Shown here: piece by piece, positions 1,305 through 16,335 of the stretch
Layout: each line of letters starts with the position of its first letter
How positions within the stretch are numbered: the first letter of the stretch is position 1
DNA from: Halioglobus sp.
GTDB taxonomy: Bacteria; Pseudomonadota; Gammaproteobacteria; Pseudomonadales; Halieaceae
Direction of reading: 5' to 3'
Length of the DNA: 64,000 nucleotides
Assembly: GCA_034521205.1 (NCBI GenBank)
Contig: JAXHMT010000002.1
Coordinates: forward strand, 37,896 to 101,895
Made by a program: the position numbers and the translations under genes
Notes under the pieces: model-generated
What the model saw: the letters and a program-made list of their open reading frames with translations, nothing else
Told to the model about the DNA's origin: nothing
The model's database searches: none

Positions 1305-1320
1305 TGTTCGGCAGCGCACA
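1305..1320. promoter_or_regulatory. CRP-like palindromic operator upstream of DUF883 (TGTTCG-GCAG-CGCACA)
   Basis: Matches the island motif; minus-strand -10-like CATCAT (1278-1283) is 21 bp away. Confidence 0.65.
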
Positions 1321-1555
1321 GATCGTCGGAGCCCAGGTGACGCGAATCCGGGTCGTCAATCGAGTTCGCACCATCGGTGCCGACGGCTGCGTGAAGCATC
1401 TGCATCAGAACGGTGCAGCAATCCAGGCGCTATGTGCTTTGCCGTACTGAAAACCTGATGCCCGATTAATAAGCTGATACGGAGAAAGATTTGCGAACAA
1501 CCTGGTTCGTAACTGCAATTATCCGTGCGGGCGGCTCCAAATCGAATGATCAGCG

Positions 1556-2683
1556 ATGACAACACCAGTATTGATCTACTACGACACGCGGATGCTCGGT
1601 CACAACCCGCACGGGTGGGACCCTGGCCATCCGGCCTGGACCGACGCCGTCAAGGCGATGATTGCACTGCAATATCCCAGCAGCAACCTGGAAACCTATA
1701 GCCACCCGGAGCGCCCGGATCGACTGACTGCGATCGTCGACCGACTGATGCTTGATCCAATCGAAGGGGTGCGCTGGATGCTGCCGACGGCGGCCAGCAC
1801 GGCTCAACTTGAGCGGGTTCATGACAAAACCTATGTCGCTCATATCGAGTCGTTGGAGGGTGAATCCTGCTGGCTGGCCAAAGATACCACCGCAGTGTCG
1901 CCGGGCAGTGTGGAAGCGGCCCGCCTGGCTGCCGGAAGCGGGAATCAGCGCTGTCGAGGCTATCTCGGCTGGGTGAGGCCCGGCGGGCGTTCTGTATCGT
2001 GCGGCCACCAGGGCATCATGCCCATTCCGGCCGCGCCTCGGGCTTTTGTCTGTACAACAACCTTGCGGTTACCGCTGCCCATGCGCGTGAGAGCCTTGGC
2101 TATCAGCGAGTGATGGTCTGGGACTGGGATATGCACCACGGTAATGGCACGCAGGAAATCTTCTACTCCGATCCTTCCGTGCTGGTGGTTGATAGCCACT
2201 GTGCGGCGCCGTTCTATCCGGGCACGGGCCTACAGTATGAAACCGGGACCGGAGCGGGAGTCGGCTCTCAACTCAACGTTCCGCTGCCTCTGGGCAGCGG
2301 CAACGCGGCACTGCTGAAGGTGTTCGACGAGGTGGTGAAGCCGGCGGCGAAGGCATTCCAACCCGATATTCTGCTGGTTTCCTCAGGTTTCGATTGCCAT
2401 TACCTCGACATGACCTGCGTCCATGGATGAGACGGGCTTTGCCATTCTTGCCCAGCGCATGAGTGACCTGGCAGATGAGCTATGCGACGGCCGTCTGGTG
2501 GTTCTGCTTGAGGGCGGCTACAACGCCCAGGCATTGGCCGATAGCGCTCATGCTGTCGTAAAGGTGCTGGCGGGGAACCCCGTAAATGCGTGCAATGTCA
2601 TGCTGGATGATCCTGGCTGCGGGGCTGTGGCGGATGTCATCCAGTTTCATCAAGGGACATATACCCGGCGTGCACGGGGGTAG
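1556..2683 (+). pseudogene. Histone deacetylase family (class II/AcuC/APAH-like) Zn hydrolase, frameshifts near 1942 and 2420
   Basis: HPERPDRL, RPPGHHA, GFCLYNN, DWDMHHGNGTQ, GFD and LEGGY motifs across ORFs 1556-2113, 1999-2430 and 2423-2683. Confidence 0.9.
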
Positions 2684-2913
2684 TAAAGGTGCCACACAGA
2701 TTCGCTGCAAGCACGATTCCCCAGAGGCGCGCGATGCAATAGAACCCGTTACGCGTTCTGCAGCGCTCCCGCTGCGTCGCCAGGCGGAGTCGCCATGCCT
2801 GCAAGGTCTTGCCCCGATACTGTACTCGTATCGCCGAGTTTATTTTTCGCATTATTGGATAGCCGCCAGGAGAACTCCGCTCCGCTGGTTTACCGGAATC
2901 ATGCACTGCCGTT

Positions 2914-2933
2914 TCTGTGCGATCGCGCACAGA
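2914..2933. promoter_or_regulatory. Perfect CRP-like operator TCTGTGCG-ATCG-CGCACAGA upstream of the PRC-barrel gene
   Basis: 8-bp perfect inverted repeat; -10-like CATTAT at 2953-2958, 21 bp from the core. Confidence 0.75.
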
Positions 2934-3031
2934 CTCAAGCCGGGGCACCGGTCATTATGATTGAACAGAACGAAGGGATGCCGCCTGTTCTGGAAAATCA
3001 GGTATTCAAACCACACGAGTGATGGAGAAAG

Positions 3032-3583
3032 ATGATGCTTGCTCAATTAGTTCAGAACACATTAAGCGCCACCCTGCTGACAGGGGGCTTGGCCCTGAGT
3101 ATGTCCGCGGTGGCAGCTCAAGGACTGTACTCGGCTGACGATCTTCTGGACGCCGATGTCTATGCCTCCGACGGCGAGGAAATCGGCGAAGTGGAAGATC
3201 TGCTCCTGGGGGATGACATGTCAATCCATTCCCTGGTTATCGAACTGGATTCCATGCTGGGAATGGGCGGACGCGAAGTGGTTGCCATGCGTGGAACCTT
3301 TACCGTACGGCCCGAAGAGTCGAAAAAAGGTGAAAACGAATTTGGCGATATCGATTACGAAGTACACCTCGATTCGAGCAAGGATGCAATAAAAGACCTG
3401 CCGGAGTACAGCAAAAGCTGGTGGCAAAAAACTCAGGCAGCCCTGGTCAACGCCTGGGAAGAAACCATGGACACCAGTGAGAGTGCCTGGGAAAGCACCA
3501 AGGAGGCTACCTCCTCAGCCTGGCACAAACTGCGCGAAGGCGCCGAAGGACTGGGAGACGATGTAGAGGCAGCGACGGACTAG
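3032..3583 (+). CDS. Exported PRC-barrel domain protein
   Basis: Signal peptide; SADDLLDADVYASDGEEIGEVEDLLLGDD...LVIE PRC-barrel pattern; acidic helical tail. Confidence 0.85.
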   Translation: MMLAQLVQNTLSATLLTGGLALSMSAVAAQGLYSADDLLDADVYASDGEEIGEVEDLLLGDDMSIHSLVIELDSMLGMGGREVVAMRGTFTVRPEESKKGENEFGDIDYEVHLDSSKDAIKDLPEYSKSWWQKTQAALVNAWEETMDTSESAWESTKEATSSAWHKLREGAEGLGDDVEAATD

Positions 3584-3667
3584 CCAGGATCAACCCAATA
3601 GATCGGATTCTGACGGACGCGCACAGGTCGATGCTGGATTTTCAGTGTCCGAATCCATGAGCCTGTG

Positions 3668-3683
3668 TGCGCGGAAACGAACA
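3668..3683. promoter_or_regulatory. CRP-like operator (TGCGCG-GAAA-CGAACA) upstream of a small lipoprotein
   Basis: CATAAT at 3705-3710, 21 bp downstream. Confidence 0.65.
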
Positions 3684-3746
3684 GACCATTCCACTACCTG
3701 CTGCCATAATCTGTTTCTACCCACTGGAAACTGGAGACCAATCACC

Positions 3747-3911
3747 ATGAAACTCAGCAGAACCATTACAGCCGCCATACTCGCAAGTGCCTTGATGATC
3801 ACACTGTCTGCCTGCGAGAACGAAGGTCCTCTTGAAGACGCGGGTGAGGAGATGGACGACGCAGTCGAGAACACAGGCGATGCCATCGAAGATGCCACCG
3901 ACGGCGGTTGA
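3747..3911 (+). CDS. Small acidic lipoprotein (54 aa)
   Basis: MKLSRTITAAILASALMITLSAC lipobox, then ENEGPLEDAGEEMDDAVE; GGAG SD upstream. Confidence 0.8.
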   Translation: MKLSRTITAAILASALMITLSACENEGPLEDAGEEMDDAVENTGDAIEDATDGG

Positions 3912-3969
3912 GCCAAAATCGGAGTGATGATTCTTCGGGTATATGCCCTCGGAGATCTTTTCACGTGGT

Positions 3970-5035
3970 ATGAAAGTGATTCTGATCTTGTCGGCCCTTA
4001 TTGTGGTGATAATAACGGCCCTTCCGCTGCTGCGTTTCGACCAGTGGTGGATTCGCGTTCTCGATTTTCCAAGAGCGCAAATCACCGTCGCTGGCATTGT
4101 GCTTCTTGCTCTCCATCTCTACTTCTGGGAAGCGCACCGGATTTACGAATCCGTTGTTCTTGGCCTGTTGGTGCTGGCGGTCGGGTATCAGATTGTGAAG
4201 ATATTCCCGTACACGGTGCTTATGCCCAGGCAGGTATTAGCGGCTGAATCGCGTTCGAACGGTGCTAACCTCAAGTTGCTTGTTGCCAACGTGCTGATGG
4301 ACAACCGGGAGTCTGAAGCCTTTCTGGATATCGTGCGCGAGTTTGACCCTGACATGGTCCTGACCGTGGAGACAGACGATTGGTGGGAGAAAGCACTCAG
4401 GGCATTGGAAGAGAAGTATCCATACACGCTCAAGAATCCGCTAGACAATACCTACGGCATGCTTTTGCACAGTCGACTGGAGGTGATAGATCCCGAAATC
4501 CGCTTTATTCTGAAAGACAGCATCCCGTCGATGCACATGCAGGTGGTGCTGCCTTCGGATGACCGGGTCTTCATGCACTTCGTCCATCCCGATCCGCCAA
4601 ACCCGAAGTATGCGACGGAGACGACCGAGCGGGATGCAGAACTGCTGATCCTCGGCCGGGAGACGGAGAAGCGTGACAAGCCGACAATCATTGCAGGGGA
4701 CTTCAACGATGTTGCATGGTCCGATACCACGCGTCTCTTTCAGAAAGCCAGTGGTCTGCTCGACCCGCGTGACGGACGGGGGATGTACTGCACCTTCAAT
4801 GCCAGAAATCCTCTGACTGCGCTGGCCGCTCGATCACGTCTTCCACTCCGATCATTTCAAGCTCGTCCGCATGGAGAAGGGGCCTGCCTGGGGATCGGAT
4901 CATTTTCCCATTTTCATCGAATTGAGTCTGGAGCACGAAGCAGAAGCTGAGCAGGACGAACCGGATACAGACCAGTCGGAAGCGGATCGGGTAGACGAAA
5001 AAATCAAAGACGGCAGGCAGAAAGCCGAGGAATGA
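3970..5035 (+). pseudogene. Membrane-anchored endonuclease/exonuclease/phosphatase (EEP, YafD-like), frameshift near 4815
   Basis: N-terminal TM helices; ANVL, LTVE and AGDFNDV motifs; the shifted frame restores RWPLDHVFHS...GSDHFP and ends at TGA 5033-5035. Confidence 0.85.
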
Positions 5036-5262
5036 TTCTGTCAGGTCTGGTCTTCTGGAAAATTATCATTAATTGGTTCGCAATCGAACTGAGGAGTGAA
5101 GAACATCAAGGTGACCTCGAAGTAATTCTGTGGGATAGCAAACAGTGAGGGCGCCAACAGCATGTCAGTCTGGCGCACGCAGCCCGCTGCCGCCGACACA
5201 AAATTGCTCACTGATTCATTCGATTCTGATCCATTCAACACCGGAAGCCAAGGAAGCCATAA

Positions 5263-5843
5263 ATGCCTTTCGAATTAACCGATCTACCTTACGCTCGCGA
5301 TGCACTGCAACCGCACATGTCAAAGGAGACCCTGGACTTTCATTACGGCAAACATCACGCCGGCTATGTGAAAAAGCTGAACAAGGCGCTGGAGAAAAAG
5401 GGGCTTGACGTTCCGCTGGAGGAGCTGATACGCACGCAGTCCGGCGACGTATTCAACAATGCGGCGCAGGTCTGGAACCATACGTTTTTCTGGCACCGTC
5501 TTAGCCCTGACGGCGGAGGAGAACCAGAAGGCGCACTGCTGGATGATTTGAATGCGGCGTTTGGTTCCGTGCAGGAGTTCAAGGACAAATTCAAATCTGA
5601 CCGCCAAGTCCAATTTCGGCTCCGGATGGACATGGCTGGTACAGAATGCGAACGGAGAACTGGAGGTCGTGAACACCGATGATGCGGATACGCCGGTGCG
5701 AGACACTGCTAAACGGCCGCTACTGACGGTTGACGTCTGGGAACATGCGTACTATCTGGATTACCGCAACTGACAGAGGCGCCTACCTTGACGCCTTCTG
5801 GAAGCTCGTCAACTGGTCGTTCGTCGCGGGCAATCGTCCGTGA
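5263..5843 (+). pseudogene. sodB: Fe/Mn superoxide dismutase (Fe-type signature), frameshifts near 5595 and 5772
   Basis: [41 protein letters not shown]; a third frame gives AYLDAFWKLVNWSFV...*. Confidence 0.92.
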
Positions 5844-5930
5844 GCTGCGACCGACCACGACAACTCTCGACAAAAGGCCTGTGGACCCGCGACTCGAGAT
5901 TGGCATACCCACCTTGAAAGGAGAACGCTG

Positions 5931-6225: not shown

Positions 6226-6356
6226 GCTTGCAGGCGGCGTCTTCTGCTGAAAAAACTCCCGCTCTCGCAGCTCGCTATATTTTTTGAGGGTCGCCTCGAT
6301 ATGGGGCGCTCCTTCGGCGAAGTCGTGACCTGTCTCCGGTTGTGTCGTGGAGTTGT

Positions 6357-6537
6357 TCATTTCGTTGCCTTCTTGACGTCGCTCTTGATGTCACCGTACT
6401 TGGCTTGTGCCTTGCCGGCATGCTTCTCGGCCTTTCCCTTGTACTCCGTGCTTTTGTCGCCCGTCACCTTGCCGGCAGCCTCCTTGATCTTGCCTTTTGC
6501 CTCGTTTCGCACGACCTTTGACCTGATTCTTGTCCAT
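6357..6537 (-). pseudogene. csbD: CsbD/YjbJ general stress protein, +1 frameshift near 6507
   Basis: MDKNQVKGRA.EAKGKIKEAAGKVTGDKSTEYKGKAEKHAGKAQAKYGDIKSDVKKATK*. Confidence 0.85.
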
Positions 6538-6648
6538 GCAGCTGATCTCCAGAGAACTGTCTCGTTTGAGTTTTGCCACTTACCGCGAATCCATTCAGAT
6601 CTGAGGGTGGCAAGCGATGCACTCTAAGTTGAAGCTCAGATTCTGGTC

Positions 6649-6721
6649 GGTGCGGTGCCAACGTAGCCCACAGCTGCACTGATTACAAAACCGGCTTGGC
6701 GGATCGGTACGATATAGCACA
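6649..6721. promoter_or_regulatory. Divergent pair of CRP-like operators (6649-6664 facing csbD; 6706-6721 facing DUF2254)
   Basis: GGTGCG-GTGC-CAACGT with minus-strand TAGAGT (6621-6626); GGTACG-ATAT-AGCACA with TAACAT (6744-6749). Both gaps are 22 bp. Confidence 0.55.
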
Positions 6722-6937
6722 GACGGCTCGTCGAAGATCGGGATAACATTCGCACCTTGACCGGGCTGGCATACAATACCCGGGTCAGGCGCGATGTCTG
6801 CACTTTGACAGTGGCAACCTCCGCCGCTGTGATCTGGCCGTACCTGCTCTTCGGTAAATTGACAGGAGTGAGTGTGCCGCGGAAGCATCCGTCTTTGGCA
6901 TGCAGAAAGCGCTCCCTGCCGAAGTGGGCACAGGGAA

Positions 6938-8035
6938 ATGAAGATGACTTCGACGATTTCGACGGAACGCCGCAGGTTCCTGGTCAGCCAACTCCGCGAG
7001 CGACTCTGGGTAAGGCCGCTGCTGGTGTGCCTGCTATCAATTGGCGCGGCTTTCTTCGCAAAGCTCATCGATGACACGGGGTTGGGGCGGTATGTGCCGG
7101 AAGTCACAACCGAGTCTGTCGAGATGCTGTTGTCCGTCATGGCCGCCAGTATGATGGTGATTGCTACATTTTCAGTAGCCTCAATGGTTTCAGCCTATGC
7201 GGCGGCAAGCAACACGGCTACGCCGCGATCCTTTGCCCTGGTGGTTGCCGACGACGCCTCGCAGAATGCGCTTTCAGCCTTTGTCGGCGCATTCATCTTT
7301 TCCATTGTGGCGCTTACTGCGGTCAAGAACGGTTATTTCGGTTCTGCCGGGATTTTCATTCTCTTTGTGCTAACGGTGCTGGTTTTCACCATGGTTATCT
7401 TTACCTTCGTGCGCTGGGTCGATGGTATCGCCCGCCTCGGGCGAATTGGCTCAACGCTGGAAAAGGTCGAGAAGGCAACGGGCGAAGCGCTGAAGCGGCG
7501 GCGGAATGCACCCGCTCTTCAGGGGTCCGCAGCGCGGGCCCGGCCAGCGGGACAGGCGGTGTTTGCGAACCAGGTCGGCTACGTGCAACACATCGATGTC
7601 GAGACGCTTCACGGCTGGGCAGAAAAGGCCGACGTCCGGGTACTTGTCGCCGCGTTGCCGGGCACTTTTGCCACGCCGGAACGGCCATTGGCGTACGTGG
7701 TCACCGAACGCGAGGGTCAACCCGTGCCTGAGTGCGAGTGTGTCGTCGAGGCTTTTGACGTCGCTACCGATCGCCGATTCGATGACGACCCGAGGTTTGG
7801 TCTGGTTGTTCTCGCGGAGATAGCCGGAAGGTCACTATCGCCCGCGATCAATGATCCCGGCACCGCGATAGAAGTTCTGGGTAGAATGGGCCGGCTCTTT
7901 TATCTGTGGTCTCAACCGGCAACAAATCAGGATGAACACTGGACGCTGTATGAGCGGGTGGAAGTACCCGAGGTGTCGGTGCGAGATATGTTTGACGACG
8001 CCTTCACCGTGATTGCCCGGGACGGTGCCGGTCAG
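6938..8035 (+). pseudogene. DUF2254 family membrane protein, C-terminally broken after ARDGAG
   Basis: LRERLWVRP, ATFSVASMVSAY..AS..ATPR, DDPRFGLVVLAEIA.RSLSPAINDPGTAI, FDDAF..IARDGAG; the normal tail is missing. Confidence 0.85.
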
Positions 8036-8343
8036 GCCTGCTGGCCGCGCATTTGCCAACGTTTCGTATGCCCCCGACCCGGAAGAGGGTCTGCGTGCCA
8101 TCGAACGGGCACTGATTTGCATGAATCCCGACCACCGGTGGAAGGTCGGGTTTGACGGTGACGAGAACGTCTACGACATCCGCTATACTCTGATTCATGA
8201 GGGAGAAGTAGTATCGCTCCGTCAGTGGGTGCTCCTCGCGGTAGCGTCAACCCGGGCAGCTCCCGGGCTCGGGATCGCGGCAGGAGCGGTCAATTCGTAC
8301 TCGTCCCTCAGTGTGCCCGCCAAGCGTGAGGCGGGCTCGAGCT

Positions 8344-8418
8344 TCAGCCCACTCCCAAAAAACCCAAGACTACCGCTACAATGACGACTGCACCTACAAG
8401 CCAGACAATTGAGTTCAT
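8344..8418 (-). CDS. 24-aa single-pass membrane small protein MNSIVWLVGAVVIVAVVLGFLGVG
   Basis: ATG with GGAG SD upstream, one hydrophobic helix, own operator-like site at 8481-8496. Confidence 0.6.
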   Translation of the reverse strand: MNSIVWLVGAVVIVAVVLGFLGVG

Positions 8419-8480
8419 GATTCGCTCCGTTTCGATGTTGTTACCAAAACATCCTTTTACCACCGCATGGACCCGGTGTA

Positions 8481-8592
8481 AGTACGTTATCGAACATTTG
8501 TATGAAAGCCTCGTCAGAAAAATTCCCGCGGCTTTGATTGCGACAAGCCTTTCGAATAGCCAATCGACAGCCAGTGCCTGCGGTGACGCACA
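8481..8592. promoter_or_regulatory. Divergent pair of CRP-like operators (8481-8496 facing the sORF; 8577-8592 facing yqaE)
   Basis: AGTACG-TTAT-CGAACA with minus-strand TAAAAG (8454-8459); CCTGCG-GTGA-CGCACA with CAGGCT (8614-8619). Both gaps are 21 bp. Confidence 0.55.
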
Positions 8593-8656
8593 GACAAGGC
8601 CGCGCCCGTGCCTCAGGCTGGCGGCTGACAAGTCATTCAACGTTGAGGAGTTCCCG

Positions 8657-8830
8657 GTGGCCGTCACAGCAACCGATCCGATCAAGATTCTTTTTGCCAT
8701 CCTCTTGCCGCCGCTCGGCGTCTTTCTTGAGGTAGGCCTGAAAGGCCATTTCTGGCTGAATATCCTGTTGACCCTGCTGGGATTCATTCCCGGGATCATT
8801 CACGCTCTGTACGTTATTCTCAAGCATTAG
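8657..8830 (+). CDS. yqaE: YqaE/Pmp3 (UPF0057) membrane protein
   Basis: GAGGAG SD plus GTG start; ILFAILLPPLGVFLEVGLKGHFWLNILLTLLGFIPGIIHALYVI. Confidence 0.92.
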   Translation: MAVTATDPIKILFAILLPPLGVFLEVGLKGHFWLNILLTLLGFIPGIIHALYVILKH

Positions 8831-9148: not shown

Positions 9149-9922
9149 TCACGCCGGCGCGCGAGGGTGCAGGACCTTGGGTCTGTAGGTCATCAACCGG
9201 TCGGTCTCCTTCTTTACCACCTCGTAGCACTCGCAGCTGAGCTGTTCAAGTCTGGGCCGGTCCATAACCTCTATCTTGCCGCGCCTATAAGTGATGACGC
9301 CGAGTTTTTGTAGTTTGCCCGCCGCCTCGGTCACGCCCTCCCGGCGCACGCCGAGCATATTTGCGATCAGCTCCTGGGTCATGACCAGGTGGGGGCCTTC
9401 CAGGCGGTCAAGGGAAAGCAGCAGCCAGCGGCACAGTTGCTGGTCGATGTTATGGTGGCGATTGCAGACCGCGGTCTGGGCCATCTGGGTGATCAGTGAT
9501 TGGGTATAGCGCAACATCAAAAAGAGCAGTTCGCCGTGGCGGTTGAATTCCGCCTTCATTCGCTGTCCCGCCAATCGATAGGCGTATCCGGCACTTTGAA
9601 CAACGGTACGACTGGGCGTGCTTTCGCCACCCATGAACAGGGAAACACCCACAATGCCCTCTTTGCCCACCACCGAGATTTCCGCCGATTCGCCATTTTC
9701 CATTACATAGAGTAATGAGACGATGCTGTCGATGGGGAAATAGACATACCTCATGGTATCCCCGGATTCACAGATCACGTGGCCAAGGGGCAGGGGCACC
9801 AATTCAAGGAATGGGTAGATGCGCTCCTTTACCTCCGGGGACAACTCTCCCAGCAGGTGATTTTGCTCGGGACTCTGAGCGGTCTGTTGCCTCGAAGTGG
9901 CGGCCTGAGATGCTTGCGTCAT
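9149..9922 (-). CDS. Crp/Fnr family transcriptional regulator
   Basis: cNMP-binding-like domain (VYFPIDSIVSLLYVMENGESAEISVVGKEG) and HTH TQELIANMLGVRREGVTEAAGKLQ. Confidence 0.93.
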   Translation of the reverse strand: MTQASQAATSRQQTAQSPEQNHLLGELSPEVKERIYPFLELVPLPLGHVICESGDTMRYVYFPIDSIVSLLYVMENGESAEISVVGKEGIVGVSLFMGGESTPSRTVVQSAGYAYRLAGQRMKAEFNRHGELLFLMLRYTQSLITQMAQTAVCNRHHNIDQQLCRWLLLSLDRLEGPHLVMTQELIANMLGVRREGVTEAAGKLQKLGVITYRRGKIEVMDRPRLEQLSCECYEVVKKETDRLMTYRPKVLHPRAPA

Positions 9923-10000: not shown

Positions 10001-10067
10001 TACGACGGAACATAACGGCGGCACGCCAACCGCTCCGATAAATTATGTAGCAGTTTCGGCCGCTGTC

Positions 10068-10152
10068 TGTGCGATAACGCACATAGAGCCGATAACTTCG
10101 GGGCGCGGGGCGGAAGAAAACTGTTTGTCGACAATATGTGTCCTGACGTACA
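10068..10152. promoter_or_regulatory. Divergent CRP-like operators: TGTGCG-ATAA-CGCACA (10068-10083, faces the regulator) and TGTGTC-CTGA-CGTACA (10137-10152, faces the sugar transferase)
   Basis: Minus-strand CATAAT (10042-10047) 20 bp from the first; TACTCT (10174-10179) 21 bp from the second. Confidence 0.7.
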
Positions 10153-10189
10153 TACGCAAAAATTCTGGAGTTGTACTCTCCTTCCTCTG

Positions 10190-10876
10190 TTGATAGAGCC
10201 AACTCAGGCAGGAGCAATTCAACGTGCAGCAGGCGCAATTCAACGTGCAGCAGGCGCAATTCGAACGCCAGCCCGCAGGCGGCTTCGGCAAGAGAGCATT
10301 GGATATCGGCACGGCCTGGTCTGCCTGCCGGTCACCTGGCCGGTGATGTTGCTCGCCATTCTTGCGATCAAGATCGAGGATGGGGGCGGTGCCCCGGTGA
10401 TCTTGCGTCAGCGGCGTGTGGGTTTGCATGGAGCCGTGTTCAGCGTGATGAAGTTTCGCAGCATGGCGACCATTGCGAAAAGTGACGGCGAGGCGCGCTG
10501 GGCGATTGCAAATGATGCCAGGCTTACCCGGGTCGGGCAGCTTATCCGCAAATTGCATATTGATGAGCTGCCGCAGATTTTCAATCTATTAAGAGGGGAT
10601 ATGTCCCTCGTCGGCCCACATCCCGAGCGCCCCGAAATTGTCGGCGAACTGGCCAGGAAAATTCCCCAGGTCCACACACGCCACTGTGTCAAGCCCGGTA
10701 TAACCGGCTGGGCACAAATCAACTATCCTTATCGTGCATCAGTGGCTGATGCCAGAAACAAGTTCAAGTCTGATTTGTACTACGTGAAGAACCAGAGTCT
10801 GTATCTGGATTTCATGGTCTTGCTGCGGACCGTTAAATTGGCGCTGTTTGGCAAGCGAATACAGAAACAAGGGTAA
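10190..10876 (+). pseudogene. Polyprenyl-phosphate sugar-1-P transferase (Bac_transf, WcaJ/PssA-like), short form with an N-terminal frameshift
   Basis: KRALDI (10290-10307) is out of frame with QRRVG, KFRSM, TRVGQLIRKLHIDELPQ, GDMSLVGP.PERP, KPGITGWAQIN and DLYYVKN. Confidence 0.85.
10205..10267. repeat. 21-bp tandem repeat CAATTCAACGTGCAGCAGGCG (two full copies plus partials)
   Basis: Copies at 10215-10235 and 10236-10256, partial from 10257. Confidence 0.85.
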
Positions 10877-10888: not shown

Positions 10889-13456
10889 TCAGGATTTCGA
10901 GTCCTGCCGCAGGGTCTGCTCCAGTTTCTTGGTTGCGGTGATATCCAGCAAGGTAATGACCACCCCGTCAATCACATTGTCCAGCCTGCGATAGGGCATT
11001 ATCCTTACCGTGAACCAGCGGCCGTCTGTGGCCAGTATCTGCTTCTCCGAAAATACCAGGGTACGCAGGGTTTCCAGCGCATCACTATGCAGGTCCGGGT
11101 ACTGGAGATTGCTGGTAAGGTCACTGAGTGGCCGCCCCAGGTCGCTCTCCCGGACATTGATGATTTTTGTTGCCCGGTCAGTGTAGCGTCTGACGTTCAA
11201 GTCCTGATCCAGAAACAGAATTGCGATCTCGATGCTGTTGAGCAGGTTGCGCATGTCACTCTGGGCCAGCGCGAGATCATCCAGCTTGGACTGCATCTCT
11301 GCATTGATGGTTTGCAGCTCCTCGTTCATCGATTGCATTTCTTCCTTGGAGGTTGTGAGCTCCTCATTCGTGGATTGCAGCTCTTCGTTGGTAGATTGCA
11401 ATTCCTCGTTCGCGGACTGCAGTTCTTCCTTGGATGCGTGAGCTTCCTCACGCAGGCTCTGTATTTCGTCGCGGTATTGCTGGATCTCGTGTTCATGAGA
11501 GCTTGCCAGGGTTGTTTTCCCCTTTTTCCGTGCAACGTCCGCACTTGTCCGGGCGATATCGTGAAACACGATCATGCTCGTGCCGCGCGGGCTGTCCGGC
11601 GGTGCCAGCGCCTGTATCGTGATATCGACCTGCTGCCCGCCGCCGCCCGGTAACTGTACCTGCAGCCCGTGCAGATGTTGCGTTTCACCCTCCTTGGCCA
11701 ACTTCTTCAGGGCGGTACTGATCGGTATCTGCAGACTCTCACGCACCATTGCGTGGAGGTTCCAGTTGGCTTTCCCCGTAGCGGGCTCCAGGTACTTCCC
11801 CGTGCGACCGCTGATATAGAGAATGTCACCGTCCTGGTTGATGACGACCGCAGCGGGGGCATAGACCTGCAGCAGGACCTGATCGGCGGTCGCCTGCAGG
11901 TTATCGCTTAAGGGAGGGGTAGTGGCCATGGGTTGCTCCCTGGCTTTTTTTGACAGTGGTGGAAAGGAATTTAGCAGAAACTCCGTCTTGCCACTAAGGG
12001 TGCTATCCTGGCGTCGGTACAGGCGCAGTTTGGACTCCAGCGGCGCGAACAGCCGGGTGTGCTGCCCCACCGTTTCAGCAGTACCCAGCAGCAGCACTCC
12101 GCCCCGGCGCAGGCTGTAGTGAAACATCGGTATCAGGCGGCGCTGCAGGTTGGCATCGAAGTAAATGAGCAAATTGCGGCAGCAAATCATGTCGAGTTTG
12201 GTAAACGGCGGATCCAGTATCACATCCTGCTGGGCGAACAGCACCATGTCCCGAATGTCGCTGTTGATCTGGTAACTGCCGGTGTGGGCAGTGAAAAATC
12301 GCTCCAGCCGCTCTGTTGATACCTCGGCTTCGATCGCGGCGGGATAGCGCCCACGGCGGGCGGTATCTATGGCCTCCCGGCTAAGGTCTGTGGCAAAGAT
12401 CTGCAGGGAGAAATCCCGGAAACTGCTGTGCTGGCGGATCACCTCTTTGAAGCTTATCGCCAGCGAATAGGCCTCTTCACCCGTTGAGCAGCCGACCACC
12501 CAGGCCCGCAATCTTCGCAGCTCGCTGCGCTGGGCCAGCAACTCCGGCAGCGCGACCGTTGCCAGGTGCTCCCAGACCGCAGGGTCGCGGAAAAAGCTGG
12601 TCACGCCGATCAGCAGTTCCTTGAAGAGCAGGTCTATCTCCTGAGGGTTCGCCTGCAGATATTCTGCGTAGTCTTCAGGCGTGGCAATAGCATGGATGGC
12701 CATACGGCGTTCTATGCGCCGGTTCAGGGTGCTGCGCTTGTAGAGAGAAAAATCGTGCCGGGTTCTCTGCAGCAGCAGATCGAAGGTGGTCTGTAGTGGT
12801 TCGTGGTCTATTTCCTGATCCCGGGCGGGATAATTCGGGTCTCGAACATGGGCGATGTAGGCCAGAATTCGTGCCGGCAATTCCTCCGGCGGCGCCACGA
12901 TGTCACCGCACTCCGCGGCGATGGCGCTTTTGGGCATCGAGTCGAATTGCGCGGTATCCGGGCGCTGCACCACGGTTAAACCGCCGACAGCCCTGACTGC
13001 CTGCAGGCCCAGGGTGCCGTCGGAACCCATACCGGAAAGGACCACGGCGATGGCGCGCTCACCCAGTGCGCCCGCCAGGGAAGAGAACAGCACGTTGATT
13101 GGCAATTGCATGCCCCGGGGTTCCACGGGCGTCTCCAGTTGCAAGGTGCCGTGGCTTACGCTGAGTTCGGTATTGGGAGCGATGACGTAGACACAGTCGG
13201 GCTCTATGCGCATATTCTGGCGCGCCTCGCGCACCGGCATCGGGGTAGTCCGCTGTAGTAGCTCTGATAGCACTGTTTCGTGGGTGGGATCGAGATGCTG
13301 CACAACGATGTAAGCCATGCCGCTGTGCGCTGGAGTATTCCCGAGAAATGACTCCAGCGGCGCCAGGCCTCCGGCAGACGCGCCAATGCCAACAATGCGG
13401 GTCGCCGCGGATCGGGGTGTTGCGGGTGGTGAGTCGGCGGGTATCAGGGCAGCCAT
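10889..13456 (-). CDS. CheB methylesterase-CheR methyltransferase-PAS-coiled coil-PAS fusion, no kinase domain
   Basis: GASAGG/QHL/LSGMGSDG triad; TSFFRD, GCSTGEEAYS, CRNLLIYF; EELQSTN heptads; C-terminal PAS (GRPLSDL). Confidence 0.93.
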   Translation of the reverse strand: MAALIPADSPPATPRSAATRIVGIGASAGGLAPLESFLGNTPAHSGMAYIVVQHLDPTHETVLSELLQRTTPMPVREARQNMRIEPDCVYVIAPNTELSVSHGTLQLETPVEPRGMQLPINVLFSSLAGALGERAIAVVLSGMGSDGTLGLQAVRAVGGLTVVQRPDTAQFDSMPKSAIAAECGDIVAPPEELPARILAYIAHVRDPNYPARDQEIDHEPLQTTFDLLLQRTRHDFSLYKRSTLNRRIERRMAIHAIATPEDYAEYLQANPQEIDLLFKELLIGVTSFFRDPAVWEHLATVALPELLAQRSELRRLRAWVVGCSTGEEAYSLAISFKEVIRQHSSFRDFSLQIFATDLSREAIDTARRGRYPAAIEAEVSTERLERFFTAHTGSYQINSDIRDMVLFAQQDVILDPPFTKLDMICCRNLLIYFDANLQRRLIPMFHYSLRRGGVLLLGTAETVGQHTRLFAPLESKLRLYRRQDSTLSGKTEFLLNSFPPLSKKAREQPMATTPPLSDNLQATADQVLLQVYAPAAVVINQDGDILYISGRTGKYLEPATGKANWNLHAMVRESLQIPISTALKKLAKEGETQHLHGLQVQLPGGGGQQVDITIQALAPPDSPRGTSMIVFHDIARTSADVARKKGKTTLASSHEHEIQQYRDEIQSLREEAHASKEELQSANEELQSTNEELQSTNEELTTSKEEMQSMNEELQTINAEMQSKLDDLALAQSDMRNLLNSIEIAILFLDQDLNVRRYTDRATKIINVRESDLGRPLSDLTSNLQYPDLHSDALETLRTLVFSEKQILATDGRWFTVRIMPYRRLDNVIDGVVITLLDITATKKLEQTLRQDSKS

Positions 13457-13478
13457 GGCGCGGAGCCGCTAATCGGGG

Positions 13479-14084
13479 TTAGCCGACACTCGCGCACTCA
13501 CAGCAGGCCAACAGCGTAAACCCGCTCCCGGGCAAGGCGGATGCCAGGAACTGCAAGGGTGGTCTGGCTCCGCTCGGGCCGGGTTGCCTTGGCACCGCGC
13601 AGGAAGCCCTGCCCCCATTATTTACTACACGCCGCAGCAAATCCCCCAGTAGGGGCCTGAATTCCGGTGTCAGGAGAGTGTCGATTCGGCGCCCCCCCAG
13701 GTCGATCCCGGCAACGCCAAAGAGCTCCGAGGCAGCGGGATTGCCCTCGATGACGATGCCATCGTGATCAAGGATAAAGTAGGCCAGGGGCGCGCATTCG
13801 TAAAGCGCCCGGTAGCGGCTGAGCTCTTCCACCATCGCCCGTTCATTGGCGGCAATCTCCTCGTTCTGCAGGTCCAGCTCCACCTGATGAACCTGTAATT
13901 CATGCAGGAACCTGAGGGCGTCGTCCGCGGTTTCGGGATTACCGGCCAAGCGGTGCAGCAGGCGCAGGGCATCCACACTCATTGCGCAGTGGGTTGTGGG
14001 GGGCGTTGTTCCCGCCGCCAGTTGCGCTTCTGCCTTGTCGCGCAATTGCGTATAGACAGCGGGTTCACTAATGGATGTCAACAT
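13479..14084 (-). CDS. Coiled-coil (HELQVHQVELDLQNEE) plus single PAS domain protein
   Basis: Signalling helix followed by RYRALYECAPLAYFILDHDGIVIEGNPAASELFG PAS; no output domain. Confidence 0.8.
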   Translation of the reverse strand: MLTSISEPAVYTQLRDKAEAQLAAGTTPPTTHCAMSVDALRLLHRLAGNPETADDALRFLHELQVHQVELDLQNEEIAANERAMVEELSRYRALYECAPLAYFILDHDGIVIEGNPAASELFGVAGIDLGGRRIDTLLTPEFRPLLGDLLRRVVNNGGRASCAVPRQPGPSGARPPLQFLASALPGSGFTLLACCECASVG

Positions 14085-14160
14085 ACAATGTGCAGCCTCT
14101 CCTGCAGCTATTCAGTCTAGCGTATCGCAGCAGTAGATAGTATCGTCTCACTACCCCTTC

Positions 14161-14176
14161 GGTGCAGAGACGCCCA
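14161..14176. promoter_or_regulatory. CRP-like operator (GGTGCA-GAGA-CGCCCA) upstream of the PAS/cheBR pair
   Basis: Degenerate motif match; weak minus-strand TATCTA (14134-14139) 21 bp away. Confidence 0.4.
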
Positions 14177-14345
14177 GAAAGGGCCCTCTGGATGGCCATT
14201 GACGGATTCTATCCACGCTTGGCCATGCTCTCCAGCTATCTGCAGACCATGGCTAACTGTGGATACAGCCCCCTCGTCGCTATACAGCTCGCTCCCTGGC
14301 CAACTTTACGCCGAAGGGGGCGAGTAGTTATTACCTTCAGACTAA

Positions 14346-15545
14346 TCATGTGACCGTCCCGTATGCCACTGCCTGTTCCCGCTCTCGATGATAGAACTGG
14401 AAATTATTCCGACCCTGCCCCTTTGTCATGTACATGGCGGTATCCGCATTCTGCAGCAAGCTCATCGCATCTTGACCGTCCGCAGGGTAGGAGCTGATGC
14501 CGATACTCAAGCTTACATTCAGATCGTGACCGTCAATAACCCGAGGCCGTGTAAATTTGGCCAGCAACTTTTTAGCGACCTCAGCAGCATCCTCCATTTT
14601 CTCAACCTGGGGCAGCAGAATAACAAACTCATCCCCGCCGAGGCGACCAACGGTATCCGTGCCGCGCACGCAGGACACCATCTCCGCCGCTGCTTCCTGC
14701 AAAAGTTGATCGCCAACCGCATGACCACAGGAATCATTGATCTGCTTGAAATAATCCAGATCGAGAAAAAGCACAGCGACCTGCTTGCGGTTCCGCTTTG
14801 CCATGCCGATAGCCTGGGTCAGGCGCTCCATCAACAGCAGGCGGTTGGGCAAGCCAGTAAGACTGTCGTGCTGTGCAAGATAGCTCATATTATCTCTCAC
14901 ATGCCGGGATTCCTGCGCATCATGGAAGACTATGACGGCACCAGCCAGTTTTCCGTGTCGGTTGAGGATAGGCGCCGCCGAGTCCTCAATCGCAAGATCA
15001 CTGCCGTCATGGCGTATGAGTACGCTACCGAGTTCAAGCTCGACTATCCGGCCCTCGTTCATCGCCCGTTTCGACGGGCTGATTCGAGGCTTCCGGGTGG
15101 TACCGTCAACAATGGAAAAGACATCAGCTTCGGGACGTCCACATGCCTCTGCGCTGGCCCAGCCGGTCAGCTTTTCAGCAACCCTGTTGAGATAAATCAC
15201 GATTCCATCCGGGTCGGTAACCAATACGGCGTCGCCGATAGCGTTCAGCGTGATCTGCGCCATGTCGCCAAAGGACATCTCACTAAAGGCGGTCCTGGTC
15301 GTCTCATCATTGCAGTCTGTCTGAGTAGACAAGTTGCCCGTCCAGGTGCAGACGGGGTCCCCATTTCCTGCGGCACACCGGTAACGATGAACAGGGAAGA
15401 AAAGGCTCATCAGCCGATCGACGGGGCGACGCTCAATAGGGATCAGCGAGCTGTTACAACGCGGACATGCCGGCGTGGTAACGGCGGGAGCACTGCGGTT
15501 CCAAGCCCCACCCGTATGCTTTATAAGACTGTTTTTAGTTCCCAT
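14346..15545 (-). CDS. Diguanylate cyclase: N-terminal 4-Cys motif, PAS/PAC and GGDEF
   Basis: CPRC...RYRC...C; ITLNAIGDAVLVTD PAS; HDSLTGLPNR, FLDLDYFKQIND, RLGGDEF. Start codon uncertain. Confidence 0.92.
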   Translation of the reverse strand: MGTKNSLIKHTGGAWNRSAPAVTTPACPRCNSSLIPIERRPVDRLMSLFFPVHRYRCAAGNGDPVCTWTGNLSTQTDCNDETTRTAFSEMSFGDMAQITLNAIGDAVLVTDPDGIVIYLNRVAEKLTGWASAEACGRPEADVFSIVDGTTRKPRISPSKRAMNEGRIVELELGSVLIRHDGSDLAIEDSAAPILNRHGKLAGAVIVFHDAQESRHVRDNMSYLAQHDSLTGLPNRLLLMERLTQAIGMAKRNRKQVAVLFLDLDYFKQINDSCGHAVGDQLLQEAAAEMVSCVRGTDTVGRLGGDEFVILLPQVEKMEDAAEVAKKLLAKFTRPRVIDGHDLNVSLSIGISSYPADGQDAMSLLQNADTAMYMTKGQGRNNFQFYHREREQAVAYGTVT

Positions 15546-15579
15546 ATTCCAGATAATTTCAAGTAATCTTTGCTCAGTC

Positions 15580-15632
15580 TGTGCGAAAACACACATAAAG
15601 CCCCTGCGACCCGCTCAGTGCGCCGCCGAACC
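15580..15632. promoter_or_regulatory. Divergent CRP-like operators: TGTGCG-AAAA-CACACA (15580-15595, faces the DGC) and AGTGCG-CCGC-CGAACC (15617-15632, faces GlsB/YeaQ)
   Basis: Minus-strand AATTAT (15553-15558) and plus-strand TAAATT (15654-15659), each 21 bp away. Confidence 0.65.
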
Positions 15633-15731
15633 GACGGACTCTATCGCGCGGCGTAAATTAACCCTTGCGCGTTGGACGTAATCTGACTGGACTGACGCTT
15701 TGTGCGTCGATATCAACGGGAGTAAGGAATC

Positions 15732-15998
15732 ATGGGTATTATCATATGGCTCATCATGGGTGGCATCGTCGGCTGGATCGCGAGCATGATCATGGGAACC
15801 AACGGGCGGCAAGGCATTATCCTCAACATTGTGGTCGGGATAGTTGGTGCACTCATCGGCGGCTGGCTGATCGGACCACTGATCGGCGCTGGATCCATCA
15901 ACGACGGCATCACCTTCATGAGCTTTATCGTGTCGCTGATCGGTGCGGTGATTCTGCTCTTCGTAGTCGGCCTGTTCCAGCGCAAGTCTGCACACTAA
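15732..15998 (+). CDS. GlsB/YeaQ/YmgE transglycosylase-associated stress membrane protein
   Basis: MGIIIWLIMGGIVGWIASMIM...ILNIVVGIVGALIGGWL...SLIGAVILL. Confidence 0.92.
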   Translation: MGIIIWLIMGGIVGWIASMIMGTNGRQGIILNIVVGIVGALIGGWLIGPLIGAGSINDGITFMSFIVSLIGAVILLFVVGLFQRKSAH

Positions 15999-16319
15999 GT
16001 TGCTGCTGCCGGTCGTGTGCCCCAATAGAGCATCAGACCGGCTTGCGGAGATCCCTGGGGCTGTCGAGGCCGAGCAGGCTTGGAGCCTCTCTCCCATCCC
16101 CGGCTCCCTCCGTCGCCAGCCGTTGCTCCCACCTCGCGCGGACAGCTGACCAGGTAACGGTAAACTGAAGACCAATACGAAGGGCGAAGGCCAACAGGCC
16201 GTCGGTCAGCACAACCTTATTCTTTTGCAAGTTGGAAAAGCCGCCCTCTCCGGGAAAATTTCTCCGAAAAGCTTCTGCTGCCTATCAAGTCGCGGCTTTG
16301 GAAAAAATCACGCCGTATA

Positions 16320-16335
16320 AGTTGGCCAGCGCACC
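16320..16335. promoter_or_regulatory. CRP-like operator (AGTTGG-CCAG-CGCACC) upstream of the second csbD
   Basis: TACCCT at 16357-16362, 21 bp downstream; same half-site type as at csbD1. Confidence 0.5.

What the first reader, a model, noticed from the sequence alone, without database searches (positions are those of the whole stretch)
1305..16335. Island-wide regulon: 13 copies of a CRP-like palindrome at class II promoter spacing
Seen: 16-bp sites of consensus TGT(G/T/A)CG-N4-CG(C/A/T)ACA, often followed by GA, at 1305, 2916, 3668, 6649, 6706, 8481, 8577, 10068, 10137, 14161, 15580, 15617 and 16320, all intergenic. Some are perfect palindromes (2916, 10068); others have one degenerate half. 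Each has a -10-like hexamer 20-22 bp away, oriented toward the adjacent gene: CATCAT, CATTAT, CATAAT, TAGAGT, TAACAT, TAAAAG, CAGGCT, CATAAT, TACTCT, TATCTA (weak), AATTAT, TAAATT, TACCCT. No clear -35 was noticed. Established: CRP binds TGTGA-N6-TCACA and activates class II promoters when centred near -41.5; these sites read TGTGC-N6-GCACA at that spacing. Inference: one Crp/Fnr-type activator drives DUF883, PRC-barrel, a lipoprotein, both CsbD, DUF2254, YqaE, GlsB, a 24-aa peptide, the sugar transferase, itself and the signalling genes. That would be a portable general-stress regulon that needs no SigB, EcfG or RpoS. Whether it is already described was not checkable.
Basis: partly seen in the sequence, partly recalled or inferred. 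Interest (0 to 1): 0.92.

Follow-up and report, generated by a model that had tools for sequence, protein, structure and literature searches.

The report
Stress island with own Crp-type switch
A 23-kb mobile gene island carries its own, so far unstudied Crp/Fnr-type regulator, and that regulator's 20-bp DNA box sits at activator distance before nearly every island promoter for small stress, envelope and signalling genes; the same regulator-and-box pair recurs in hundreds of other bacteria and on plasmids.

Summary
A scoring matrix built only from other genomes puts 18 of the 47 best-scoring positions of this 4.4-Mb genome inside one 23-kb island (P about 1e-28). All 18 lie outside coding ORFs. 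Eleven of the 13 claimed sites hold; 6649 and 14161 do not. Three more sites lie inside the range (1433, 5075, 5129) and four lie left of the window.

In 79 loci around orthologues of the regulator, the exact core occurs 65 times against 1.5 expected. It sits before the regulator gene in 46 loci. TANNNT hexamers pile up exactly where a site centred at -41.5 predicts them.

The regulator belongs to a very large, unnamed Crp/Fnr subfamily with a CNRHH...CECY signature. It is not CRP, FNR or NtcA. I found no paper on the box or the regulon.

Portability is supported: 89-bp flanking repeats, low G+C, and copies on pKLC102 and Burkholderia plasmids. Independence from RpoS is untested, because the host has rpoS. 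TSS mapping and DNA binding remain to be done.

The parts
9149..9922 (-). Crp/Fnr-superfamily regulator (257 aa) of an unnamed subfamily. Signature: C153-N-R-H-H157, C164, C230-E-C232-Y233. HTH reads GVRREGVTEAAG.
   Evidence: Pfam HTH_Crp_2 55.6 bits and cNMP_binding 35.5 bits. No NCBIfam equivalog. AF2 model pLDDT 93. Foldseek matches MtbCRP, GlxR, FNR and NtcA at TM 0.65-0.8 and 12-22% identity. Signature conservation.
10066..10085 (-). Operator 1, the best site in the whole genome (28.4 bits). It faces the regulator gene. -10 is CATAAT at 10042-10047; predicted TSS about 10035. This is the autoregulatory site.
   Evidence: A matching site lies before the regulator gene in 46 of 79 loci and in the Haliea island.
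10135..10154 (+). Operator facing the sugar transferase gene (Bac_transf, ORF 10136-10876). -10 is TACTCT at 10174-10179; predicted TSS about 10186. The true start codon is therefore probably TTG 10190.
   Evidence: 17.8 bits, rank 12. Conserved in the Haliea island. Pfam.
2914..2933 (+). Operator facing the PRC-barrel gene (3032-3583). -10 is CATTAT at 2953-2958.
   Evidence: 23.8 bits, rank 2. A PRC gene with a site is also present in the Haliea island.
1303..1322 (-). Operator facing the DUF883 gene (841-1152). -10 is CATCAT at 1278-1283.
   Evidence: 21.5 bits, rank 4. Pfam DUF883.
1431..1450 (+). It faces the histone-deacetylase-like gene (1556-2683, frameshifted). -10 is TAAGCT at 1470-1475.
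   Evidence: 16.0 bits, rank 15. Pfam Hist_deacetyl.
3666..3685 (+). Operator facing the 54-aa lipoprotein gene (3747-3911), with the EEP-family gene (3943-4950) downstream. -10 is CATAAT at 3705-3710.
   Evidence: 15.5 bits, rank 20.
5073..5146 (+). Two new tandem sites (20-mers 5073-5092 and 5127-5146, centres 54 bp apart) before the Fe/Mn superoxide dismutase gene (5263-5773, frameshifted). -10 is CAGTCT at 5166-5171.
   Evidence: 13.4 bits (rank 31) and 17.4 bits (rank 13). Pfam Sod_Fe_N.
6704..6723 (+). Operator facing the DUF2254 gene (6872-8155). -10 is TAACAT at 6744-6749.
   Evidence: 19.5 bits, rank 8. Pfam.
6647..6666 (-). Claimed site before csbD-1 (6360-6540). It is not supported as a full site. 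The right half and flank are kept, but the left half is 1 bp out of register.
   Evidence: Score -9.7. Aligned with the 16320 promoter. The assembly shows reading-frame breaks in several island genes, one of them a homopolymer indel inside csbD-1 (read).
8479..8498 (-). Operator facing the 24-aa membrane peptide ORF (8344-8418). -10 is TAAAAG at 8454-8459.
   Evidence: 20.1 bits, rank 7.
8575..8594 (+). Weak operator facing the Pmp3/YqaE gene (8657-8830). -10 is CAGGCT at 8614-8619.
   Evidence: 12.2 bits, rank 41. Pfam Pmp3.
14159..14178 (-). Claimed site before the PAS gene (13479-14084) and the CheB-CheR-PAS gene (10889-13456). It is degenerate and not supported by score.
   Evidence: 3.8 bits. 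Orthologous PAS genes in L079 and L058 do carry strong sites (25.8 and 22.3 bits) at a similar distance.
15578..15597 (-). Operator facing the PAS-GGDEF diguanylate cyclase gene (14346-15545). -10 is AATTAT at 15553-15558. The predicted TSS, about 15546, falls at the ATG, so the mRNA may be leaderless.
   Evidence: 21.3 bits, rank 5. GGDEF genes carry sites next to the regulator in 10 loci and in the Haliea island.
15615..15634 (+). Operator facing the GlsB/Transgly_assoc gene (15732-15998). -10 is TAAATT at 15654-15659.
   Evidence: 15.5 bits, rank 19. 3 of 5 GlsB homologues in other loci have sites of 20-24 bits.
16318..16337 (+). Operator facing csbD-2 (16442-16621). -10 is TACCCT at 16357-16362.
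   Evidence: 13.4 bits, rank 30. 3 of 3 CsbD homologues in other loci have a site.
16799..16887 (.). Right copy of an 89-bp direct repeat (98.9% identical). It is the 3' end of the M19-dipeptidase-domain gene. The left copy is at C2:31610-31698, about window -6285. Together they bound the 23-kb island.
   Evidence: G+C is 54-57% inside against 63% for the genome.

Best explanation
What it is. The region from about 6.2 kb left of the window's start to window position 16798 is a 23-kb horizontally acquired island. It is flanked by 89-bp direct repeats and encodes a self-contained regulon.

How it most likely works. The regulator encoded at 9149-9922 is a dimeric Crp/Fnr-fold protein of a large, uncharacterised subfamily. 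It binds a 20-bp palindrome, T(C/A)TGT(G/A/T)CG-(C/G)TA(G/C)-CG(C/T/A)ACA(G/T)A. At about 15 island promoters this box is centred at -41.5, where it replaces the -35 element. From there the protein most likely recruits RNA polymerase as a class II activator.

What it switches on:
- its own gene, giving positive feedback
- small envelope and general-stress proteins: DUF883, PRC-barrel, a lipoprotein, two CsbD, DUF2254, Pmp3/YqaE, GlsB and a 24-aa peptide
- a superoxide dismutase and a deacetylase-like gene
- a sugar transferase
- a PAS-GGDEF diguanylate cyclase, and probably a PAS / CheB-CheR-PAS pair

Shown here: the box, its enrichment, its fixed spacing to -10 elements, its co-occurrence with the regulator across taxa, and the protein fold.

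Inferred: that this protein binds the box, that it activates rather than represses, the TSS positions, and the sigma factor used.

The signal is unknown. Candidates are a ligand in the partly conserved cNMP-type pocket (GxEG...PxRA) or a thiol/metal site formed by the nearly invariant C153, H157, C230 and C232.
For: 1. Enrichment in this genome. 18 of the 47 best matrix hits in 4.4 Mb lie in the 23-kb island, all outside coding ORFs (P = 1.3e-28). The matrix was derived from other genomes only.
2. Link between regulator and box. There are 65 exact cores against 1.5 expected in 79 orthologous loci and 169 against 6 at a 14-bit cut-off. Sites lie before the regulator gene in 46 loci.
3. Dimer-type symmetry. 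Both arms and the outer T/A flanks are conserved (149 and 160 of 181). There is no conservation outside the 20-mer.
4. Class II geometry. TANNNT starts at motif positions 37-39 in 71 of 181 promoter orientations, against about 1.7 per other position. The same spacing is seen in the window. Every predicted TSS lies 0-120 nt before a correctly oriented start codon.
5. Closest relative. The Haliea island is syntenic (PAS - CheBR - Bac_transf <> Crp - PAS-GGDEF; DUF883, DUF3309, PRC; a second Crp) and has 9 sites at the matching promoters.
6. Similar cargo elsewhere carries sites.
7. The protein is a confident Crp/Fnr fold.
Against: - No binding data and no TSS data exist.
- A site overlapping the -35 region could also repress.
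- Several -10 elements in the window start with C (CATAAT, CATTAT, CATCAT) and two are poor (CAGGCT, TAAAAG).
- Two claimed sites fail.
- The island holds two further Crp paralogues. One is frameshifted; the other is 34% identical with a different recognition helix. Which protein or proteins occupy which site is therefore open.
- The strongest site outside the island (C3:630108, 22 bits) has no obvious target gene.
Confidence: 0.8

Rival explanations
1. The box is a repressor operator. The Crp-like dimer sits on the -35 region and keeps the island silent until a signal releases it.
For: The site covers the place where a -35 element would lie. Autoregulated repressors are common. There are no expression data.
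Against: The distance to the -10 is fixed to +/-1 bp across 70 promoters in many taxa, and there is no -35-like element of its own. This is the signature of class II activation by CRP/FNR proteins (established knowledge). Repressor operators are not usually phased this strictly. The -10 elements are weak, as expected for activator-dependent promoters.
Confidence: 0.1
2. The sites are real, but another protein reads them instead of the 9149-9922 product. Candidates are the 34%-identical third paralogue (C2:34151-34990) or the host's global CRP.
For: There are three Crp-type genes in the island. The TGT...ACA frame is shared with CRP sites.
Against: The box follows orthologues of this particular protein (67-83% identical) across 79 loci and onto plasmids, usually right before their own gene. 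The third paralogue has a different recognition helix (GVQRGAIT). The conserved CG at core positions 5-6 and TA at 8-9 differ from the CRP consensus TGTGA-N6-TCACA.
Confidence: 0.07
3. The repeats are chance matches, or left-overs of duplicated promoter segments, and have no common regulator.
For: With 2 mismatches the simple 16-mer pattern is not enriched in the window. The two csbD promoters are paralogous copies.
Against: See the enrichment P = 1.3e-28 with an independent matrix. There is no sequence similarity outside the 20-mer. The box is conserved in unrelated genomes.
Confidence: 0.01

Closest known systems
E. coli CRP (CAP) at class II promoters such as galP1
   Same: Same fold: a cNMP-type beta-barrel, a long dimer helix and a winged HTH. 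Both use a palindromic site in a TGT-N10-ACA frame centred at -41.5 that replaces the -35 element. The R-E pair of the recognition helix is kept (R194, E195).
   Different: Only 13-14% identity. The core reads TGTnCG-N4-CGnACA with a central TA, not TGTGA-N6-TCACA. The R185 equivalent is E199. There are extra C-terminal helices with a CECY motif. The ligand is unknown. The regulon is stress and envelope genes, not catabolic genes.
FNR / Anr, and the B. cenocepacia lxa low-oxygen locus (Sass et al. 2013, PMC3721108)
   Same: Crp/Fnr-family activators act at class II promoters. In lxa, a gene island rich in stress proteins carries its own Crp-type regulators and a repeated box.
   Different: There is no N-terminal Cys cluster for a 4Fe-4S centre. 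The lxa/FNR box is TGA-N6-TCA (TTGAT-N4-ATCAA type), a different sequence. The Burkholderia orthologue of our regulator sits among PRC, Ysc84, DUF1003 and transketolase genes, not among the lxa USP genes.
NtcA (cyanobacterial nitrogen regulator)
   Same: It is the best sequence match among solved structures (E = 4e-5) and a class II activator.
   Different: NCBIfam NtcA scores 24.7 bits against a cut-off of 245. The NtcA box is GTA-N8-TAC. There is no link to nitrogen genes.
c-di-GMP-responsive Crp/Fnr proteins: Clp (Xanthomonas) and BerA/Bcam1349 (B. cenocepacia; PMC3584217, PMC5552954)
   Same: They are Crp/Fnr-fold regulators tied to c-di-GMP signalling and to exopolysaccharide or sugar-transferase genes. 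Here a GGDEF gene and a sugar transferase gene flank the regulator and carry its box, and GGDEF genes recur in 10 loci.
   Different: Whether this family binds c-di-GMP is untested. No BerA operator is published in the papers I could read. berA is reported to have an RpoN promoter, not an autoregulatory class II site. Orthology to BerA was not tested.
General stress regulons driven by sigma factors: RpoS, SigB, EcfG-PhyR
   Same: The cargo families overlap: CsbD, DUF883/ElaB-like, PRC-barrel, BON/OsmY-like, entericidin, GlsB/YmgE, Pmp3.
   Different: The shared promoter element is an activator box plus an ordinary -10, not an alternative-sigma -35/-10 pair. The module travels with its own regulator on islands and plasmids.

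Membership tests
Crp/Fnr superfamily | An N-terminal cNMP-binding-type beta-barrel plus a C-terminal Crp-type winged HTH | tested here: met
   PF00027 scores 35.5 bits (cut-off 27.5) and PF13545 scores 55.6 bits (cut-off 27).
Crp/Fnr superfamily | Three-dimensional fold: barrel, long dimerisation helix, HTH with wing | tested here: met
   AF2 model pLDDT 93, pTM 0.87. Foldseek probability 1.0 and TM 0.65-0.8 to MtbCRP, GlxR, FNR, NtcA and Clr.
CRP sensu stricto (cAMP receptor protein) | Recognises TGTGA-N6-TCACA | tested here: not met
   The conserved core is TGTnCG-nTAn-CGnACA. Positions 5-6 are CG in more than 90% of 181 sites.
CRP sensu stricto (cAMP receptor protein) | Close sequence relationship to CRP/Vfr/GlxR and cAMP binding | tested here: inconclusive
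   13-20% identity to solved CRPs. No NCBIfam equivalog. A PBC-like GxEG...PxRA stretch is only partly conserved (R105 in 69%). Ligand binding cannot be tested with these tools.
FNR / Anr / Dnr | An N-terminal Cys cluster plus a central Cys that ligate a 4Fe-4S centre; FNR box TTGAT-N4-ATCAA | tested here: not met
   The N-terminal 50 residues contain no Cys. The conserved Cys residues are at 153, 164, 230 and 232 instead. The box differs.
NtcA | NCBIfam TIGR03697 equivalog score; GTA-N8-TAC box | tested here: not met
   24.7 bits against a cut-off of 244.95.
Class II activator-dependent promoter | Activator site centred near -41.5, overlapping the -35 region, with a -10 element at fixed distance | tested here: met
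   Spacing to -10-like hexamers holds in 70 promoters of other taxa and in 13 promoters of the window. The position is relative to predicted TSSs, not mapped ones.
Class II activator-dependent promoter | Transcription depends on the activator; the TSS is mapped | not testable with these tools
No expression data are available.
Integrated genomic island | Compositional shift, flanking direct repeats at a gene 3' end, and a recombinase | tested here: inconclusive
   G+C is 54-57% against 63%. 89-bp direct repeats duplicate the 3' end of the dipeptidase-domain gene. No integrase was seen in the ORF survey.

The most novel reading that the evidence does not exclude
This CNRHH...CECY subfamily of Crp/Fnr proteins would be the master switch of a horizontally mobile general-stress and envelope-stress response. 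It would be used across Gamma- and Betaproteobacteria and beyond, including lineages that lack RpoS (for example Lysobacterales). It would work through an activator box rather than an alternative sigma factor. It would sense its signal through a new Cys3-His thiol/metal site at the hinge between the dimer helix and the DNA-binding domain, possibly coupled to c-di-GMP made by the GGDEF enzymes it induces.
Probability: 0.3. Interest if true: 0.82.

Novelty: new variant of a known kind. Interest (0 to 1): 0.62.

Why it matters
CsbD, DUF883, PRC-barrel, DUF3309, Pmp3, GlsB, BON and entericidin-type proteins are among the commonest "general stress" genes whose function and control are unknown. In most bacteria they are known only as members of RpoS, SigB or EcfG regulons.

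Here they form a compact regulon with a defined 20-bp box and a defined, very widespread regulator. That regulator family counts 3,524 clusters at 50% identity with E <= 1e-30. It also rides on plasmids and on the P. aeruginosa element pKLC102.

This gives a directly testable handle, namely one protein, one box and about 15 promoters, on three questions:
- when these genes are used
- what signal triggers them
- how a stress response can be transferred between species as one unit

Tried and rejected
1. A simple pattern search with 2 mismatches showed no enrichment. I replaced it with a matrix built from other genomes.
2. I used it only to spot the hit left of the window.
3. My crude GC3 gene caller labelled only 60% of the genome as coding. 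I replaced it with a per-hit ORF test.
4. I checked top hits outside the island (C3:630108, C4:110482 and others) for target genes. No convincing regulon members turned up.
5. The B. cenocepacia lxa locus and motif are a different box, TGA-N6-TCA. The Burkholderia orthologue is in another cluster.
6. BerA/Bcam1349: no operator sequence is given in the readable papers. Orthology was not tested.
7. The B. cenocepacia TSS paper mentions no such motif.
8. Literature searches for the motif and for regulator-plus-cargo combinations found nothing relevant.
As a result there is no RNA evidence and no genome-by-genome co-occurrence test. The part of the island left of the window could be read only in Python.

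Full report
**Setting.** The window is C2:37896-101895 of a 4.4-Mb, 63% G+C genome in 7 contigs.

| Gene | Window coordinates |
|---|---|
| DUF883 | 841-1152, minus |
| Histone-deacetylase-like (frameshifted) | 1556-2683 |
| PRC-barrel | 3032-3583 |
| 54-aa lipoprotein | 3747-3911 |
| EEP family | 3943-4950 |
| Fe/Mn SOD (frameshifted) | 5263-5773 |
| CsbD | 6360-6540, minus |
| DUF2254 | 6872-8155 |
| 24-aa peptide | 8344-8418, minus |
| Pmp3/YqaE | 8657-8830 |
| Crp/Fnr-type regulator | 9149-9922, minus |
| Bac_transf sugar transferase | 10136-10876 |
| CheB-CheR-PAS | 10889-13456, minus |
| PAS | 13479-14084, minus |
| PAS-GGDEF | 14346-15545, minus |
| Transgly_assoc/GlsB | 15732-15998 |
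| CsbD | 16442-16621 |

**Is the motif there and beyond chance?** The exact pattern TGTNCG-N4-CGNACA occurs 4 times in the window against 0.10 expected. It occurs only 9 times in the whole genome, and three of those lie within 9 kb of the island.

I fetched 79 loci around orthologues of the regulator (67-78% identical). They come from Pseudomonas, Nevskia, Lysobacterales, Rheinheimera, Colwellia, Halomonas, Marinobacter, Nitrosomonas and others. In these 1.43 Mb the exact core occurs 65 times against 1.5 in shuffles. A 16-bp matrix gives 169 sites against 6 at 14 bits.

Aligning 181 site-plus-flank sequences from these loci shows that the element is a 20-bp palindrome. The outer T at position -1 and A at position 18 are kept in 149 and 160 of 181 sequences. 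Positions 0 and 17 are C/A and G/T. The centre is TA. Nothing outside the 20-mer is conserved.

**Independent ranking in this genome.** A 20-bp matrix built only from the other genomes ranks all positions of this genome as follows:

| Site | Rank | Note |
|---|---|---|
| 10068 | 1 | claimed |
| 2916 | 2 | claimed |
| 1305 | 4 | claimed |
| 15580 | 5 | claimed |
| C2:33885 | 6 | left of the window |
| 8481 | 7 | claimed |
| 6706 | 8 | claimed |
| C2:32902 | 11 | left of the window |
| 10137 | 12 | claimed |
| 5129 | 13 | new |
| 1433 | 15 | new |
| 15617 | 19 | claimed |
| 3668 | 20 | claimed |
| C2:34992 | 25 | left of the window |
| 16320 | 30 | claimed |
| 5075 | 31 | new |
| 8577 | 41 | claimed |
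| C2:32026 | 47 | left of the window |

Eighteen of the top 47 positions lie in 0.52% of the genome (binomial P = 1.3e-28). None of them is inside a long coding ORF, whereas about half of the hits elsewhere are.

Two claimed sites fail. Site 14161 scores 3.8 bits. Site 6649 scores -9.7; it shares its right half and 13 flanking bases with the paralogous csbD promoter at 16320, but its left half is one base out of register. The assembly shows reading-frame breaks in several island genes, one of them a homopolymer indel inside csbD-1, so this one-base shift may be an assembly error or a real decay.

**Promoter geometry.** In the 181 oriented sites from other taxa, TANNNT hexamers start at motif positions 37, 38 or 39 in 71 cases, against about 1.7 per position elsewhere. 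With -12 at position 38, the site centre (8.5) falls at -41.5. The hexamers are mostly TAnnCT, with C at -8 in 39 of 70.

In the window, every supported gene-facing site has a -10-like hexamer at the same place. These are CATCAT, TAAGCT, CATTAT, CATAAT, CAGTCT, TAACAT, TAAAAG, CAGGCT, CATAAT, TACTCT, AATTAT, TAAATT and TACCCT. Strict TANNNT is found at 5 of 13 (P = 1.7e-6) and [CT]ANNNT at 11 of 13 (P = 7e-12). Each predicted TSS lies 0-120 nt before a correctly oriented start codon. The operator occupies the place of a -35 element. This is the architecture of class II CRP/FNR-dependent promoters (established knowledge). It is the main reason to read the protein as an activator.

**The regulator.** It has the Crp-type HTH and a cNMP-type barrel. 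The AF2 model is confident (pLDDT 93). The closest solved structures are M. tuberculosis CRP, GlxR, FNR and NtcA, at TM 0.65-0.8 but only 12-22% identity. By sequence the best solved relative is NtcA at E = 4e-5. No NCBIfam equivalog matches.

The family is very large: more than 8,000 clusters at 90% identity and 3,524 clusters at 50% identity with E <= 1e-30. All bear only the generic name "Crp/Fnr family transcriptional regulator". The closest members are from Haliea (82-83%), so the host is probably a Halieaceae member.

Nearly invariant residues define the subfamily:
- C153-N-R-H-H157 at the end of the dimer helix
- C164
- the recognition helix R193-R194-E195
- C230-E-C232-Y233 at the start of an extra C-terminal helix

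There is no FNR-type N-terminal cysteine cluster. A Cys3-His thiol or metal site at the hinge is an attractive sensor hypothesis. I could not measure distances in the model, because coordinates are not exposed.

**Regulon in other genomes.** Genes that recur directly downstream of sites in the 79 loci are:
- the regulator itself (46 loci)
- a 2,881-aa glucan-synthase-like gene in Pseudomonas (13 loci; annotated GH94 on pKLC102)
- GGDEF cyclases (10 loci)
- histidine kinases (9 loci)
- DUF3309 (8 loci)
- BON lipoproteins (8 loci)
- DUF5670 (7 loci)
- DUF4398 (6 loci)
- CsbD, GlsB, entericidin, glycine-zipper 2TM and Ysc84/SYLF proteins

The Haliea island is syntenic with the window: PAS - CheBR - Bac_transf <> Crp - PAS-GGDEF, plus DUF883, DUF3309, PRC and a second Crp. 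It has nine sites at the matching promoters, including two in the regulator/sugar-transferase gap and one before the GGDEF gene.

**Portability.** An 89-bp direct repeat (98.9% identical) lies at C2:31610-31698 and at window 16799-16887. The right copy is the 3' end of the dipeptidase-domain gene. All 18 sites lie between the two copies.

The left part, outside the window, holds a frameshifted paralogue of the regulator (C2:33065-33798, 69-88% identical) and a third, 34%-identical Crp-like gene (C2:34151-34990). Each has its own upstream site.

Orthologues are present on 75 plasmid records, including:
- P. aeruginosa pKLC102 (75.8% identical), with six sites around the GH94 gene, small hypothetical genes, a methyltransferase and a desaturase
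- a 116-kb B. multivorans plasmid with three copies among PRC, CsbD, DUF3309, DUF3096, Spy, glycine-zipper and desaturase genes
- a Methylomagnum plasmid with KGG and YsnF stress genes

**Sigma factor.** The host encodes RpoS: 76% identical to E. coli RpoS, and NF004207 at 501 bits against a cut-off of 394. The family's -10 elements prefer C at -8, which in E. coli is also a sigma-S preference (my own knowledge). On the other hand, the regulator is common in Lysobacterales, a group known to lack rpoS (my own knowledge, not tested here). "Needs no RpoS" is therefore neither shown nor excluded.

**Known or new?** Searches of the paper library for the motif in several spellings, and for the regulator together with its cargo families, gave nothing relevant. 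The lxa locus of B. cenocepacia, a stress island with its own Crp-type regulators, uses a different FNR-like box, TGA-N6-TCA. The Burkholderia orthologue of our regulator lies in another cluster, with PRC, Ysc84, DUF1003 and transketolase genes. Papers on the c-di-GMP effector BerA give no operator, and its relation to this family is untested.

Earlier notes of this scan describe the same regulator-box module in many other genomes and also found no description. These are AI notes and not independent evidence. My own tests reproduce their main points: the 20-bp site, the -41.5 spacing, the pKLC102 copy and the CECY signature.

**Verdict.** The finding is real. It is a new subfamily-level variant of the CRP/FNR class II activator theme, with its own operator and a mobile stress regulon. 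Binding, TSS positions, direction of control, the signal and the sigma factor are still inferred.

Noticed in passing
window 16799-16887 and C2:31610-31698 (about window -6285 to -6197): An 89-bp direct repeat, 98.9% identical. It duplicates the 3' end of the M19-dipeptidase-domain gene and brackets the 23-kb low-G+C island. No integrase was seen inside the island.
   Followed up: partly
window 16690-16795: An element of about 100 bp with terminal inverted repeats (GGGGTCAGAGTAAAAA...TTTTTACTCTGACCCC). The genome holds about 15 further copies or fragments, clustered at C3:388-405 kb, C4:214-216 kb and C6:20-34 kb. It looks like a MITE or REP element and sits at the island's right edge.
   Followed up: partly
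window 1556-2683, 5263-5773 and 6360-6540; C2:33065-33798: Several island genes have broken reading frames: the deacetylase-like gene, the SOD gene, csbD-1 and the second Crp paralogue. In csbD-1 the break is a homopolymer indel (an extra A). This means either assembly indel errors or ongoing decay of the island, and it affects how site 6649 is read.
   Followed up: partly
C2:33065-33798 and C2:34151-34990 (left of the window): Two more Crp/Fnr paralogues. One is close (69-88% identical, same recognition helix, frameshifted). The other is distant (34% identical, helix GVQRGAIT, but it keeps CN.xH and CECY). Each has its own upstream box.
   Followed up: partly
window 15545-15558: The predicted TSS of the PAS-GGDEF gene (about 15546) coincides with its ATG (15545-15543), so the mRNA may be leaderless. 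Similarly, the ATG at 10136 of the sugar-transferase ORF lies inside the operator, and the likely start is TTG 10190, only about 4 nt after the predicted TSS.
   Followed up: partly
window 10203-10265: About 2.5 tandem copies of a 21-nt unit (GCAATTCAACGTGCAGCAGGC) lie at the 5' end of the sugar-transferase reading frame.
   Followed up: no
C3:630108-630127 (outside the window): The third-best box in the genome (22 bits, perfect arms TGTGCG...CGCACA). It lies just after a queD-like gene and 540 bp before a LysE-type gene, with no obvious target. It may mark an unannotated small gene or RNA.
   Followed up: partly
C2:23427-30188 (left of the island): A glycogen gene cluster (glgB-like, glgC-like, a GH57-like gene and a malQ-like gene) directly adjoins the island's left repeat.
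   Followed up: no
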